A stretch of 62,629 bases of DNA, filler included, from Pseudobdellovibrionaceae bacterium (GTDB lineage: Bacteria > Bdellovibrionota > Bdellovibrionia > Bdellovibrionales > UBA1609), in NCBI GenBank assembly GCA_030591685.1. It is 5 parts of 5 records of this genome, joined end to end, with 100 filler letters (N's around TTAATTAATTAA, not from the genome) between each part and the next. Parts side by side here need not be neighbours in the genome. Positions count along the whole stretch, not along the records: positions 1 to 15,005 come from JAUVAX010000053.1; positions 15,106 to 22,645 come from JAUVAX010000073.1; 3 more parts are not named here. One strand, 5' to 3'. Within the stretch, counting starts at the first letter, position 1. Each line of letters begins with the position of its first letter. The position numbers were made by a program. Of this stretch, positions 15,001 to 21,000 are shown piece after piece.

Positions 15001-18000
15001 TAAAANNNNNNNNNNNNNNNNNNNNNNNNNNNNNNNNNNNNNNNNNNNNTTAATTAATTAANNNNNNNNNNNNNNNNNNNNNNNNNNNNNNNNNNNNNNN
15101 NNNNNAACCCACCCAAACAATAGTGAGAGCATCAGGGGTGAACCCTGCAAACCAAGCATCTTTAGAGTCACTTGTTGTCCCTGTTTTACCAGCAGCAATG
15201 CCTTTATATCCCCAGGCTTTTGCACTTTTTGCTGTACCACTGATAAGGGTTTGTTTGAGCATCCCGGTGAGCACAGCTAAGCTTTGCTTTGTAACCACCT
15301 GCTCTTCTTCGCCTTTAAACTCATAGAGGGTTTTATCATTTAAGGTGGTGACTTTGTTGACGAGGTGTACGGGTAAAAAACGACCAAAGCGCCCAATGGT
15401 TGAGTAAACCTGAGCGAGCTCTAAAGGGTAAAGCTCAAAAGCACCCAGGGTCAGTGAGGGCACTGTTTTTAACTCAGAGGTCACCCCTAGACGCCGGGCC
15501 ACGCCAATAATATTTTCAAGCCCTACTTGTAGGCCAATTTTTGCCGTACTTACGTTAATCGAATTTTTAAGCGCAAAATACATGGGGATGGGCCCCCAAT
15601 ATTTTTTGCTATAATTTTTAGGGCTCCATTTTTGCCCCTCGTACTTATGTGTAAAAGGGGCGTCGTTAATAAGCGTTAAAGGGTGGTAGTTATCGCCATT
15701 TTCATCAAGCCCCTCTAGGGCTGCTAGGTAAACAAGAGGCTTCATAATTGAACCCACCTGCCGGTGGCTGTCAGTGGCTCTATTGTACTGAGTTTTTTTG
15801 TAGTTGTTCCCGCCAATGAGGGCTTGCACTTCATTGGTCTTGAGGTTGATGTTTATAAGTAGAGCTTGGAGTTGTTTTTGTTCTTCATCGTCTAATTTTT
15901 TTATACGTTTAAAGCGTTTTTTTAAGTGGTTTAAACCGAGCTTTACAGATTTTTGAGCTAAAGTTTGAGCCTTGGGGTCAAGAGAGGTGTAGACCTTTAA
16001 ACCATAAGTGTTTTTAAGCCCTATTTTTTTTAACTCTTTTTTAACCGCATCGACGTAATAGGGGGCTGTGGGGTAAGTAGGAGCACTACTTTTTTTAGGT
16101 AACGGGTAGTTGTTAGCACTTTTAAATTCGATTTTATCAATGTAGCCATGCTTTAACATGTCAGATAATACTTTAGAGCGTCTTTTTTTGCTGATGTCTG
16201 GGTGACTAAAGGGGTTAAAGCGACCAGGGCTATTTAAGAGCCCTGCGAGTAAAGAGCACTCAGACACACTGAGGGCCCGAATATCTTTTTTATAGTAATG
16301 ACTTGCTGCTGCTGAAAATCCTCGAACTTGAAAGGGCCCTTTTTGGCCCATGTAAATAATATTTAAGTAGTTTTCTAAAATTTGTTCTTTAGTGAGCTTT
16401 TTTTCAAGCAAGACAGCCATGATGACCTCTGTGACTTTTCTTTTTAAAGTTCGTTCGTGGGTCAAAAAAAAGTTTTTCACTAATTGCTGCGTGATAGTAC
16501 TGCCGCCACTTTTAAAGTGACCCGTCCTGAGTAAATCCCAAACAGCTCTTAACATACCGGTGAGGCTGATGCCTTCATGTTCTAAAAACATGTGGTCCTC
16601 AATAGAGGTGACAGCCTGTAAACAATAAATAGGGTAGTCTTCGAGTTTAACAAGGTGCCTTAAGACAGGCTCGTTGCCGTAAAATTGTGCAAAAAGATGT
16701 GCGGGGAGTTGAAATTTCTCTTGGGGCTGATGGTTAATAAACGTGTCGAGGACCACCCCTTCAGAGTCCCAAAAAATTGAATATGTGGCTTCTGATGAGC
16801 GATATTTTGATTTAAATAAAACACATGATGTTATGTCGGGGTCGTCGTTGCCCCCTAGTTCACTGCATTGAGGTTGAGAGAGAGCTTTGTAGTCTTTAAT
16901 AAAGAGTGCCTGGGAGGGGGAACGCTTGCGAAACCCCAGTTGTATTAAGCTCGCCTCGACATGCTTAATATTTATACTTAAGCCGGGGGCTACAGTGGGT
17001 GGTTTTGCGTAAATTTCTAAAGGGGGGATAAACCATGAGGTGCGTAAGCTCTCATTGATTTGGTGATTTAATTGAAAGACCCATGAGCAAAAAGCAATGG
17101 TGATTAGCGTCAGTAAAACAAATGTTAAGAGTAGATATTTTTTAGTTTTACTTGTCATATATAACGGCCTACAGGTTGACAATAAGCCCCTAAAAACGTT
17201 TAGTCAATTACATGAAATTAAACAGTAAGCAAATCGACCGATTAGTAAAGCATATTTTCAATGAACTTAAGTCTCAAAACCTGATTACCTTTAAAGAAAA
17301 AGAAGAAAAGGTATTTCAAAGAGCTTGCGACATAGTGCTTGAAAACATACAACATGAACGAGATTTAGACCAAGAGGTTAACGTCATGCTTGACGATTTA
17401 GAGCGTGATCATGGCGGCGAGTTTCAACGGTACAAAATGTTCCCGTTACTAAAAAAGAAAGTCGCCAAAGAAAAGGGGTTTGTTTTATGATTATGTCTGA
17501 TGATCGACAAAGCCACCTTTGTCACTTAATTGTAGATGGTATCTGGAAAGACGACCTTGTTGACTACTCTGACGACGACCGAGCCCTTAGGGTTGCAAAA
17601 GTCGGCATGAGAAAGTTCATTGTAGAGTACGAGCAAATCGACAGAGATGTTAATAAAACAATCATGTCTTTAAAGCGTGGTGTTGTTGAGGGCTCCCCGG
17701 AGTGGGACATCTTATACCGAAAATACTTTGAGCAGGAGATGCAAAAGCGTGGCAATTAAAAAAAAGAAGATATCCAAAAAAAATAAAAAAACACCTTTAA
17801 AGAAAAAAGCCTCAAAAAAAACTATTAAAAAAAAGGCTACAAAGAAAAAATCAACAAAGAAAAAGGCCACAAAAAAAAGCAGTTCAAAAAAAGTGATTAA
17901 AAAGAAAGCTCCCAAAAAAACAACAAAAAAGAAAGTGACGAAAAAAAAAGTCGCTAAGAAAAAGGTATCAAAGAAGAAAACAGTAAAGAAAAAGGCGACA

Positions 18001-21000
18001 AAAAAGAAGACCTCAAAAAAGAAAGTGGCAAAAAAAAAGACGGCTAAAAAATCAGTGAAAAAGAAGGCCACAAAAAAAGCCGCAACTAAAAAAGCCCTTA
18101 AAGGCAAGAAAACAGCTCAAAAAAAGAGTGCAAAAAAGAAGACTTCGAAAAAGCCAGCAAAGAAAAAGACCTCGAAAAAATCAAAAGCCCAAAAAGGGCC
18201 ATCCGCAAAAAAAAGCGTTAAAAAAACAATAAAAGCGGACAAAAAAAAGAAGGCTTCAAAGCCGAGCTCACAGCAAAAGGTTGTCGCTAAAAATAGGTCA
18301 AAGTCTAAAACAAAACTAAGCACCTATAGTGTTCAAGTTAAACCTGCTGGTAGTAAAAAAGAGCCGATATCTCACAAAAATTGGGCTCAAGTTTTTCAGC
18401 CCCTTGATGACCGCCTTTTAGTGCTCGTTGATGCTTCTGAGGTCACAACGCCTGGCGGCCTTTATATACCAAATTCAGCAAAAACAAAGCCTAAAAGAGG
18501 TATAGTGGTCAGTGCAGGGCGAGGTAAAATGAACAAAAAAGGCCGCGTACTACCTATGGATGTAGTTTGTGGTGATAAAATTTTATTTGGCTCTTTTGAT
18601 GGGTCAACGATTACGATTCAAAAGCAAGAATTTTTACTGCTTCGCGAAACCGAAGTCTTAGGTGTGGTGTTATAAATGTTAAAGGAGAATCTAATGATCA
18701 AAAAAATCGGAATACAGTGTGTTATTATAGTTGTGTTAATATTTGCACTTCATTCAGTGGGGTTTTCTTCAGGGATTGACTGGAGCGGGCGTTACCGGGT
18801 TGAATTTAATCAACTGCAATCGGCCAAATTAACAAGTGATAGCCCACTTAAAGAGTACATTAACCACCACTTGGTTTTAAAGCCAAAAATTATAGCTTCT
18901 GATGGGCTCACTATTTTTGGTCGTTTTGATATTCTTAATAGCTCCTCACGTAATCAGTTGGGTGGTTTTTTAGGGGACGGCCTTACGGGTGCGGGGACTC
19001 ATTTTAACGACTCTCAGGCCACCTCAAATACTTTAGATGCCCATATGATTAACGTATCTCAGCTGTATTTAACCCTGACTAACGAATACGGGGCCTTTAT
19101 TGCTGGTCGTACTCCCTTTCACTTTGGTTTAGGTATGGTATTAAGTGCTGGCGAGGGTGAGTTTGATCATTTTTATAATACTCGGGACATGGTGGGATAT
19201 AAAATAGTTTTCGGTAACTATTATATTTTACCAAGTATGGCAAAAATAAAAGAGGGCGACATTGGCCAATCACTTGAGGACGTCACCGAGTATAACCTAC
19301 ATATTCAACTCGACAACCCGGATACAGACACAAGCTTAGGCCTTTTATACTCAATGAGGCGGTCGTCACTTTTAGGTAATGATACCCCTGTGACTTTACC
19401 AGGGTTTGTTACAAAAACAGAGGGGGTTGATTATAACCTTTTAGACGTCTACTGGACAAAAAAAATGAATCAACATCAAATAGCTGTAGAGGTGGCCATG
19501 TATGATGGTGATTATGGTGTAGATGATATTGGGGGCCGAAAAATAAAAGCAAGAGGCACTGGATTAGCTTTTGAGTATGAGTATCAGCCTTCGAATAAAA
19601 AACACACCTACGGCATAAAAGCAGGGATGGCAAAGGGTGATGATTTATCATCCACAGAGTCCTATGAGGGGTTTTCGTTTAACAGAAACTACGATGTTGC
19701 TGTGATTTTATTTAATCACCGCTTAGGGCAGGCCGACTTTTTGCAAACAAATATGATTGGCGGCGGCGGCGCCACAACACAGGCCGATACCGAAGCTATT
19801 AGCAATGTGACTTATTTTGCCCCTTATTTTAATTATCAATGGAAAGAGAAATGGGGCGTTAAAACAAGCTTGATCACCGCTCAGATTAGTGAAACAATTG
19901 GTAACGGAGATAGCAACTTAGGGCTTGAGTTAGACATTGCGCTCACTTACAAACCTCATGATGGGTTTAAGTGGGTGACCGAATTAGGGTACCTTATGAC
20001 AGGCAGTGCTTTTGAGGGTGGCTTAAATGGTTTTGCAACAGATTCAAGTATGGCTTTGGTTTCAAAGGTTGCCATCAGCTTTTAGCAAACAATTAAAGAG
20101 CGCAGCTTAGATATAACAACTTAGAATACTTATAAGAAATTGCGATAAGCGATGGTAAGCGGGGCCCAGGGGGTGAAATAAACCTCTGGGTTTTTTTTGG
20201 CTTCAAAAATTATGCTCATAGATGTTTTTAAAAATCTGTTGAGTTCTTAGTCAACTTCGGACAACCTTATACCTATGAAATTAGTTTTACGTTTAAGTTT
20301 TGTGGTGTTTTTTTTAATCAGTCCAAAACTTGGACTTTGTAGTAATAAAGAGTTTTTCCCCAAAAATAAAAGCCAAAACGGCCAACCCTATTTTGGCTTT
20401 GACCCCTATTTACCCTTAGTGCGCGAGTATGACGTAGAGCTCGGGGCTATGTGGGAGGACCAAACCATGTACTGGGTGGGGGGGCGAGTCGGTTTTCATG
20501 TAGGGCGGTGTATGTTTTCAGGCTCTCAAACCTGCCAACAGTACTGGGACTTGCTTGGGGGTGTTGGGGGCCGAGACGGGTCTACAAATGGTTTGCTTTT
20601 AACAGGTCCTCGGTGGCAGTTTGTAAATTACCCTAATATTTTGTCTCCAGCTATTAGCCTTTATGTTGGGGCGATGACTTTAAGTGATGCAAATAGATCT
20701 AAAGAGGTTTTAACCTACGGCATTGGTTATAGTATAACTATGGCTGTTCATGAAAACTTGGACCTTCGCCTGCAGCTCAGAGCCGGTGGTGGTGATAAAG
20801 AGTGGTCTCAAGGATTTGTGGGCTTGGGTATTAAAATAGACAATTTAGTGACCTACTATGCGAACAAACTCAATCGCTTAAAAGAAGGGGCTGTTGATAA
20901 AACAACTACCGTTATTAAGGGTACTGTTAAAGGTGCAGGGTCTGTTTTAAAAGGCACTGGTGAAGTTTTACAGAAAACTATTAAAGGCTTAGCTCCTAAA

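What a model noticed while it worked through the whole genome (the two positions that open the first line are those of the whole stretch)
17749..18675. Second GroES with a 215-residue histone-H1-like lysine tail
g00080 (C9:2644-3570, +) is a second GroES (Cpn10 domain at residues 216-307) with a 215-residue N-terminal tail of KKKA/T/S-type repeats (100 Lys of 215), like the H1-like proteins Hc2/AlgP. The tail is translated, not upstream junk: a lysine-rich extension starting MAK(K/S)K precedes the GroES2 domain across Bdellovibrionales. The published re-annotation of B. bacteriovorus groES2 (bd3349) from 224 to 117 aa, which discarded this region as repetitive sequence, should be reversed; a polycation-tailed co-chaperonin made late in the predatory cycle is a candidate nucleoid- or polyanion-binding factor.
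Evidence so far: Frame read in call 99: 0 stops in the 215 tail codons against 7 and 16 in the other forward frames and 5-13 in reverse frames; GTG start with AGGAG 5-10 nt upstream, overlapping the end of g00079; the first internal Met is residue 261, inside the Cpn10 domain. Pfam Cpn10 216-307, E 3.8e-25. 12 of the 13 homologues fetched (of 19 found; 169-250 aa) have K/A/T-rich N-terminal tails of 60-150 aa; two hit Pfam HC2. In 121 Bdellovibrionales genomes (120 with a match) GroES-domain matches fall in two classes: stop-to-stop frames of about 100-165 aa (GroES1 type; here g01266 next to groEL) and, in at least 45 genomes by my count of the listed rows, frames of 170-333 aa. Lambert et al. 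2012 (PMC3464 [...]
(Added by a program. Inside this text positions count along the whole contig: they may not be those of the stretch shown here. "Call 12" and the like, gene names such as g00115 and contig names such as C1 are that model's own, and its searches are not shown. The text may have been shortened before it was handed on; [...] marks where a part breaks off. The agent that wrote the report below was given it as the finding of a first reader that could run no searches.)

Follow-up and report, generated by a model that had tools for sequence, protein, structure and literature searches.

The report
Lysine-tailed second GroES of Bdellovibrionales
Predatory Bdellovibrio-type bacteria have a second chaperonin lid protein carrying a long, floppy, strongly positive tail that was once dismissed as an annotation error, and published fractionation data put it with the cell's DNA-and-membrane fraction, suggesting it sticks to the chromosome.

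Summary
Confirmed. Window 17749-18675 encodes a 308-aa GroES with a 215-residue tail (100 Lys). 94 of 151 genomes of the order have a second GroES. All 86 complete loci classed by neighbours, not by tail, carry a 40-215-aa Lys-rich tail with a conserved start, third-position-biased substitutions and in-frame indels. The tail is almost certainly coding, so the 117-aa re-annotation of Bd3349 fails; the likely start gives 219 aa, not 224.

Two additions. GroES2 is one fast-evolving subfamily whose roof hairpin is charge-reversed (Glu-Asp to Lys-Lys). Published HD100 source data show Bd3349 34-fold enriched in the nucleoid fraction, against histone Bd0055 10-fold, GroES1 7-fold and GroEL 0.6-fold.

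Limits: outer-membrane proteins score as high in that fraction; no tail peptide was seen; and 13 other frames in this genome carry similarly lysine-rich stretches.

Best reading: a polycation-tethered co-chaperonin at the nucleoid, perhaps in mixed rings with GroES1. New variant of a known kind. This scan noted the family before on another genome (e1-2417410).

The parts
17734..17738 (+). Shine-Dalgarno-like AGGAG, 10 nt before the GTG start, inside the last codons of the DUF507-C gene
   Evidence: in 45 of 48 loci that keep DUF507-C the start lies 7-16 nt before the end of its stop, in the same register
17749..18393 (+). 215-codon Lys/Ser/Ala/Thr-rich N-terminal tail, net charge +99, built partly of degenerate 15-nt (5-residue) repeats; predicted disordered
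   Evidence: AlphaFold model of the HD100 orthologue has pLDDT 48-58 and no secondary structure over residues 1-120
18394..18675 (+). GroES/Cpn10 domain and stop codon
   Evidence: Pfam PF00166, 85 bits vs cut-off 21.1; Foldseek hits of the orthologue's model are Cpn10/GroES chains
18454..18471 (+). mobile-loop core (GG-hydrophobic-x-IP, residues 236-241), retained in GroES2
   Evidence: column frequencies in 86 GroES2 vs 54 GroES1; its role in GroEL binding is established knowledge, recalled
18535..18540 (+). Lys263-Lys264 at the tip of the roof hairpin; GroES1 has Glu-Asp here
   Evidence: GroES2 K85%/K97%, GroES1 E94%/D87%; hairpin in the model; the name 'roof' is recalled knowledge of the fold
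17212..17490 (+). DUF507 N-half gene, first of the operon
   Evidence: Pfam PF04368 positions 1-93
17487..17759 (+). DUF507 C-half gene, overlapping the groES2 start
   Evidence: Pfam PF04368 positions 95-181
18694..20085 (+). probable outer-membrane beta-barrel gene (Bd3348 counterpart), the most constant neighbour of groES2
   Evidence: TIGR04551 match below cut-off; synteny; HD100 CAE78153.1 labelled Outer Membrane
15106..17182 (-). divergent class A penicillin-binding protein gene, cut by the contig edge
   Evidence: Pfam Transgly + Transpeptidase; synteny

Best explanation
GroES2 is a Bdellovibrionales-specific co-chaperonin paralogue made as one chain: a disordered lysine-rich N-terminal polycation (40-215 aa) followed by an intact GroES barrel. 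SHOWN here: coding signature of the tail, conserved start, one subfamily, retained mobile loop, basic roof. SHOWN in published data: the HD100 protein is made, is about as abundant as GroES1 in attack-phase cells and co-sediments with the nucleoid fraction. INFERRED: the domain assembles into rings like other GroES, so each ring displays several tails and a basic roof that bind DNA without sequence specificity, as H1/Hc2/AlgP tails do. This parks a chaperonin lid at the very compact chromosome of newly formed attack cells. INFERRED, weaker: GroES2 forms mixed rings with GroES1, which would explain why tailless GroES1 is also enriched, and the rings still cap GroEL.
For: Tail coding: 86 of 86 complete loci have an open Lys-rich frame, against 0 of 86 in either other forward frame and 1.3 expected from shuffles. 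Close pairs differ mostly at third codon positions in the tail (18 of 23, 18 of 24, 22 of 29) and by gaps such as 30 or 9 nt. 82 of 86 starts are followed by Ala. Only 22 of 86 have an ATG within 30 codons of the domain and 9 of 86 a start with a ribosome-binding motif there, against 54 of 54 GroES1. In 5 of 5 single-GroES genomes checked, the PBP-DUF507-barrel locus is intact with no groES in the slot, so tail and domain are lost together. Fractionation (Hocher 2023 source data): log2 nucleoid/top +5.08 for CAE78154.1 = Bd3349, +3.36 histone, +2.78 GroES1, -0.74 GroEL. The same paper gives -6.39 for ordinary Leptospira GroES and +0.39 for its GroEL. Only 12 of 111 'cytoplasmic' rows read reach 5.08, median 0.25. 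The 117-aa form has pI 6.8, the long form 10.5. Whole-cell LFQ 7.3e8 vs 3.9e8 for GroES1. Roof 9-mer net charge averages +3.7 in GroES2 and about 0 in GroES1.
Against: The fraction also holds membranes: 18 outer-membrane rows have a median of 5.28, the same as GroES2. Lysis was in low salt with EDTA and detergent, so a polycation can stick to DNA after lysis, and loss of GroEL is expected without Mg. GroES1's +2.78 is reached by 30 of 111 cytoplasmic rows, so mixed rings are not needed to explain it. 13 other frames in this genome have at least 20 Lys in 50 residues, among them ones I read as IF2, L21, TopA and topoisomerase VI B from their sequence, so the tail may be a lineage habit. Tail length varies fivefold. 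The domain is much less conserved than GroES1 (41% vs 78% mean identity over 44 genomes; the GroES2 rows include 12 pre-domain residues). 57 of 151 genomes show no second GroES. The 17 peptides reported for Bd3349 could all come from the 117-aa part (29-31 possible).
Confidence: 0.5

Rival explanations
1. The tail is translated but binds envelope or other polyanions (anionic lipids, polyphosphate, RNA) rather than the chromosome, holding a chaperonin lid near the membrane during septation.
For: Bd3349's ratio (5.08) equals that of outer-membrane proteins (median 5.28). The gene is fixed between a PBP and an outer-membrane barrel. AlgP, with a similar tail, localises to polyphosphate granules (PMC9239181 passages).
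Against: No signal peptide or hydrophobic stretch in the tail (composition). The neighbours stay when groES2 is lost. KPAA-type peptides bind DNA in vitro.
Confidence: 0.2
2. The tail is translated but generic: a lineage-wide, slippage-grown basic appendage (solubility, charge buffering or nearly neutral). GroES2 is just an alternative GroEL lid, as Lambert et al. proposed, and the fractionation is a post-lysis effect.
For: Similar Lys-rich stretches in 13 other frames of this genome. 15-nt repeat structure. Length 40-215 aa with no alignable core. Gene absent from many genomes. Mobile loop intact.
Against: No complete GroES2 without a tail in 86 loci, and no tail on any of 54 GroES1. Purifying-type substitution pattern in the tail. 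A second, independent basic change at the roof.
Confidence: 0.25
3. The tail is not translated and the protein starts just before the domain (the 117-aa reading).
For: Published opinion. One RefSeq entry has 117 aa. No tail peptide seen by me.
Against: This genome has no ATG before codon 261. The Met behind the 117-aa form is replaced in a close relative, and 64 of 86 loci have no ATG within 30 codons of the domain. Third-position bias and in-frame indels. RNA contigs of three studies begin about 90 nt before the long start (weak hint).
Confidence: 0.03

Closest known systems
B. bacteriovorus HD100 GroES2 / Bd3349 (CAE78154.1, UniProt Q6MI28; Lambert et al. 2012, PMC3464611)
   Same: Orthologue by synteny and subfamily: orphan groES between a PBP and a barrel gene, with a Lys-rich region ahead of the domain.
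   Different: The paper discarded the tail as repetitive sequence and discussed only an alternative lid. The window's tail is 215 aa with 47% Lys, against 123 aa with 33% Lys in HD100. The DUF507 pair is kept here and absent in the named B. bacteriovorus locus L166.
Canonical GroES/Cpn10 (PF00166), including the host's own GroES1
   Same: Fold, mobile-loop motif and terminal strands.
   Different: Not beside groEL; long basic tail; roof tip Lys-Lys instead of Glu-Asp; His to Asp in the first motif; below every NCBIfam GroES cut-off.
Histone-H1-like bacterial proteins: Chlamydia Hc2 (PF07382), Pseudomonas AlgP and PhaF
   Same: Lys/Ala/Thr/Pro-rich, disordered, short-repeat polycation. AlgP and PhaF use such a tail to tether another domain or granule to the nucleoid.
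   Different: Likeness is compositional: the window's tail has no HC2 match, and of the three relatives that matched HC2 only one reaches the cut-off. The partner domain is a co-chaperonin and the tail is N-terminal.
Hetero-oligomeric chloroplast co-chaperonins (Cpn10/Cpn20)
   Same: Precedent for mixed co-chaperonin rings (PMC4242682, search listing and start of abstract only).
   Different: No basic tail is known to me there (recalled); mixed GroES1/GroES2 rings are untested.

Membership tests
GroES/Cpn10 | Pfam Cpn10 domain above the curated cut-off | tested here: met
   85 bits vs 21.1, residues 216-307
GroES/Cpn10 | GroES beta-barrel fold with roof hairpin and mobile loop | tested here: met
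   AlphaFold model of the HD100 orthologue, domain pLDDT 71-94; best Foldseek hits all Cpn10/GroES, E 2e-10
GroES/Cpn10 | hydrophobic mobile-loop motif that docks on GroEL | tested here: met
   G90 G99 L/I100 x I88 P91 (% of 86 loci)
GroES/Cpn10 | heptameric ring that caps GroEL and supports folding | not testable with these tools
   needs biochemistry or complementation
canonical groESL co-chaperonin (NCBIfam models) | score above curated cut-offs; gene next to groEL | tested here: not met
   best 86.9 vs 133 bits; no groEL beside any of the 86 loci, which is partly by how the class was defined
Histone-H1-like Hc2 (PF07382, NF038052) | profile match above cut-off | tested here: not met
   window tail: no match at E<=0.1; P0017 40.9 vs 40, P0004 26.6, HD100 27.1; NCBIfam 21.9 vs 135
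Histone-H1-like Hc2 / AlgP | long disordered Lys/Ala-rich polycation | tested here: met
   pooled tails 37% K, 20% A, 1.3% D+E; disordered in the model
Nucleoid-associated proteins | association with the chromosome | tested here: inconclusive
   34-fold enriched in a published nucleoid fraction that also holds membranes
Nucleoid-associated proteins | direct DNA binding | not testable with these tools
   needs EMSA or ChIP

The most novel reading that the evidence does not exclude
GroES2 and GroES1 build mixed rings with alternating basic and acidic roof tips, and the H1-like tails make these rings a structural chromatin component of attack-phase cells. The co-chaperonin would then be repurposed as a multivalent DNA-compacting scaffold that also stores GroEL lids on the dormant nucleoid for release after prey entry.
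Probability: 0.15. Interest if true: 0.85.

Novelty: new variant of a known kind. Interest (0 to 1): 0.58.

Why it matters
How Bdellovibrio packs its unusually compact attack-phase nucleoid, and why it keeps a second GroES, are both open questions in a genetically tractable model. If the reading holds, an abundant co-chaperonin joins the histone Bd0055 as a chromatin-associated protein, and constructs or primers built on the 117-aa annotation lack the half of the protein that sets it apart. The claim can be tested at once with deposited spectra and a tail-deletion strain. The surprise is tempered because this lineage hangs similar tails on many proteins.

Tried and rejected
Peptide count as proof of translation: 17 unique peptides fit within the 29-31 possible from the 117-aa part, so it is uninformative.

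Control with other Lys-tailed HD100 proteins in the nucleoid table: their GenBank ids could not be obtained, so the control was not done.

The probable Fig. 2g source file of Hocher et al. (file 1) could not be read, and files 2, 6 and 7 were not searched. bioRxiv supplements are closed. These could bear on the enrichment claim.

Large excess of GroES over GroEL in the cell: considered from nucleoid-fraction iBAQ and rejected, because whole-cell LFQ (GroEL 4.0e9) gives roughly matched amounts.

P0002, the closest hit (77%) with a different N-terminus, is one sequence on a 2.4-kb contig with a signal-peptide-like start. I suspect a chimeric assembly but found no family match to confirm it.

Promoter scan: at chance level, 8 found vs 7.4 expected.

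Phage search: only ordinary-looking GroES domain matches, not examined upstream.

RNA contigs show coverage only, with no strand or level, and no DNA run was laid.

No complex prediction was run, since GroES2 with GroES1 or GroEL would pass by likeness to solved structures.

Tailed GroES outside the order: not found among the rows listed for 221 other genomes of the phylum (only 150 of 381 matches were listed), in 11 copies from 5 multi-copy genomes, or in 21 named Geobacteraceae/Nitrospirota/deltaproteobacterial loci. This is not proof of absence.
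Full report
OBSERVATION. The window is a string of contigs separated by N runs; C9 begins at 15106. 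Positions 17749-18675 read as a 308-aa frame from GTG. Its first 215 codons hold 100 Lys, 24 Ser, 23 Ala, 20 Thr and two acidic residues, with no stop, against 7 and 16 stops in the other forward frames; none of 20,000 base shuffles was stop-free. Pfam Cpn10 covers residues 216-307. The first in-frame ATG is codon 261, inside the domain. AGGAG lies 10 nt before the GTG, which overlaps the end of the upstream gene. The tail contains degenerate 15-nt repeats. The gene order is a divergent class A PBP, then DUF507 N-half, DUF507 C-half, groES2 and a probable outer-membrane barrel. The genome's other GroES is 43% identical and lies next to groEL.

IS THE TAIL CODING? In 151 genomes of the order (the own genome included), 149 have a GroES match and 94 have two or more (my count). 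I fetched the second copy from 88 of those 94, plus one single-copy genome of this type, and classed loci by neighbours rather than by tail: barrel or DUF507 and no groEL. Three loci cut by contig ends were dropped. Six second copies were not fetched; two of them show frames of 190 and 238 aa.

All 86 remaining loci, from nine families, have an open Lys-rich frame before the domain: 40-215 aa, median 109, 24-54% Lys, with this window the longest. Neither other forward frame is open in any of them, and shuffles predict 1.3 open frames. Starts are GTG (57) or ATG (29), 82 of 86 followed by Ala. My start-picking score rewarded a ribosome-binding motif and downstream lysines, so those two features are not independent evidence, and one start (L164) stayed unresolved. 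Independent of that score are the Ala and the position: in 45 of 48 loci that keep DUF507-C, the start lies 7, 10, 13 or 16 nt before the end of its stop. Close pairs differ in the tail mostly at third codon positions (18 of 23, 18 of 24, 22 of 29) and by gaps such as 30 or 9 nt; more distant pairs give some split gaps but always in-frame totals. A short start is not generally available: 22 of 86 have an ATG within 30 codons of the domain and 9 of 86 a start with a 4-base ribosome-binding motif, whereas 54 of 54 GroES1 have one. These genomes are kin, so the counts are not independent trials.

A profile search of 1.84 billion representatives agrees: of the best 150, 52 are multi-domain forms, 91 have the Lys tail and 7 do not, three or four of those 7 looking like ordinary GroES. 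In five single-GroES genomes the PBP-DUF507-barrel locus is intact and the slot is empty.

THE RE-ANNOTATION. Lambert et al. 2012 (PMC3464611; abstract and passages read) moved the start of bd3349 from 224 to 117 aa because the front 'includes lots of repetitive sequence'. In the named locus L166 (B. bacteriovorus YOA24) three starts give 224, 219 and 117 aa; only the 219-aa GTG has a ribosome-binding motif at normal spacing, and it matches the family start. A close relative has lost the Met behind the 117-aa form. Databases are split: HD100 CAE78154.1/Q6MI28 has 224 aa, RefSeq WP_226988049.1 has 117 aa (identical to residues 108-224), and many other strains carry 205-219 aa. RNA-run contigs from three of four runs laid (three studies) begin at 2540-2542 of L166, about 90 nt before the 219-aa start, and run through tail, domain and barrel gene; the fourth spans the whole stretch. 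This is a weak hint without strand or DNA control.

THE DOMAIN. GroES2 domains form one side of a branch (96/86; 43 of the 86 rows used, 94 columns, long branches) apart from GroES1 and 16 outside GroES. They evolve faster than GroES1 (41% vs 78% mean identity in 44 genomes, with 12 pre-domain residues included for GroES2) but keep the mobile-loop core. They differ sharply at the hairpin tip, Lys-Lys (85%, 97%) instead of Glu-Asp (94%, 87%), and have Asp for His in the first motif. The AlphaFold model of the HD100 protein has a disordered tail and a confident domain whose best structural matches are all GroES/Cpn10. That this hairpin is the roof of the ring is recalled knowledge of the fold. 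Tailed forms were not found outside the order in the rows examined, and the ESM Atlas clusters are mostly Bdellovibrionota.

PUBLISHED PROTEIN DATA. In Hocher et al. 2023 (PMC10627809; section 7, passages and parts of supplement file 9 read) Bd3349 has whole-cell LFQ 7.3e8 in attack phase, against 3.9e8 for GroES1 and 4.0e9 for GroEL; its RNA is 0.45 RPKM in attack phase and 594 in growth phase. With accessions fixed, the nucleoid/top ratios are +5.08 for GroES2, +2.78 GroES1, -0.74 GroEL, +5.74 the barrel neighbour and +3.36 for CAE77736.1, the histone-fold entry whose value matches the text's '10-fold' for Bd0055, so the scale is log2. GroES2 is thus 34-fold enriched. In Leptospira, in the same paper, ordinary GroES is -6.39 and GroEL +0.39. 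Among about 320 abundant rows read, 12 of 111 cytoplasmic proteins reach 5.08 (median 0.25), but 18 outer-membrane proteins have a median of 5.28, and the authors warn that membranes co-sediment. Lysis used EDTA, detergent and low salt. In Lai et al. 2025 (PMC12546842; passages and supplement rows) Bd3349 is flat to 2 h and rises 1.5-fold at 4 h (FDR 3e-10), less than GroES1 (2.6-fold); its 17 peptides do not discriminate the two forms. Neither main text matched Bd3349 in the full-text search.

CAVEAT ON SPECIFICITY. Fourteen frames in this genome, this one included, have at least 20 Lys in 50 residues: a stand-alone H1-like protein, a SWIB protein, and frames I read from their sequence as L21, IF2, TopA and topoisomerase VI B, among others. 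Earlier notes of this scan report such tails on aconitase, PolX and topoisomerase VI of related bacteria (unchecked apart). The tail is therefore a lineage-wide module. What is particular to GroES2 is that it never lacks the tail in the loci examined and that its roof also turned basic.

MECHANISM. Most likely (0.5), rings of GroES2, perhaps mixed with GroES1, present several polycationic tails and a basic roof that bind DNA without sequence specificity and hold the co-chaperonin on the compact nucleoid of new attack cells, with the mobile loop still able to engage GroEL. Rivals are a generic tail on an alternative lid (0.25), binding to envelope or polyphosphate polyanions (0.2) and an untranslated tail (0.03). 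AlgP and PhaF are the functional precedent (PMC9239181, passages), but the tail fails the HC2 family test: it works like an H1 tail and is not a member.

NOVELTY. The gene is known and long forms are already in databases. Searches of the held library found Bd3349 discussed only by Lambert et al. and no description of a lysine-tailed GroES; subscription journals are not covered. This scan noted the family earlier on another genome (e1-2417410). Verdict: new variant of a known kind, interest 0.58.

Noticed in passing
genome contigs C90:7434, C68:43454, C93:28320, C68:2861, C63:69578, C62:25588, C38:16745, C75:1104, C38:12450: Many proteins of this genome carry KKA/KKT-rich H1-like stretches: a 92-aa stand-alone protein, a SWIB protein, a half-basic half-acidic protein, and frames that read like L21, IF2, TopA and topoisomerase VI B. 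Counterparts of three have such tails in a named B. bacteriovorus genome too.
   Followed up: partly
window 17212-17759: DUF507 is split into two overlapping genes matching the N- and C-halves of the Pfam model. The pair stays when groES2 is lost and is itself absent from many groES2 loci, including L166.
   Followed up: partly
window 23272-23724 (-): 150-aa coiled-coil-like protein with a Lys-rich C-terminal tail and no Pfam match, divergent from a class II tRNA-synthetase-like gene at 23788-25134; the arrangement recalls phasins such as PhaF (recalled, untested).
   Followed up: no
window 21168-22607 (-): 479-aa acidic protein with a C-terminal run of Arg/Asn/Tyr/Ser-rich repeats and no significant Pfam match.
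   Followed up: no
HD100 Bd1337 (Q6MNC2), PMC12546842 supplement 3: The SWIB-domain protein, whose counterparts here carry an H1-like tail, is very abundant in two proteomes; a further chromatin candidate. Its nucleoid ratio could not be looked up.
   Followed up: partly
P0002: Closest database hit has a signal-peptide-like N-terminus instead of the tail; single short contig, possibly chimeric.
   Followed up: partly
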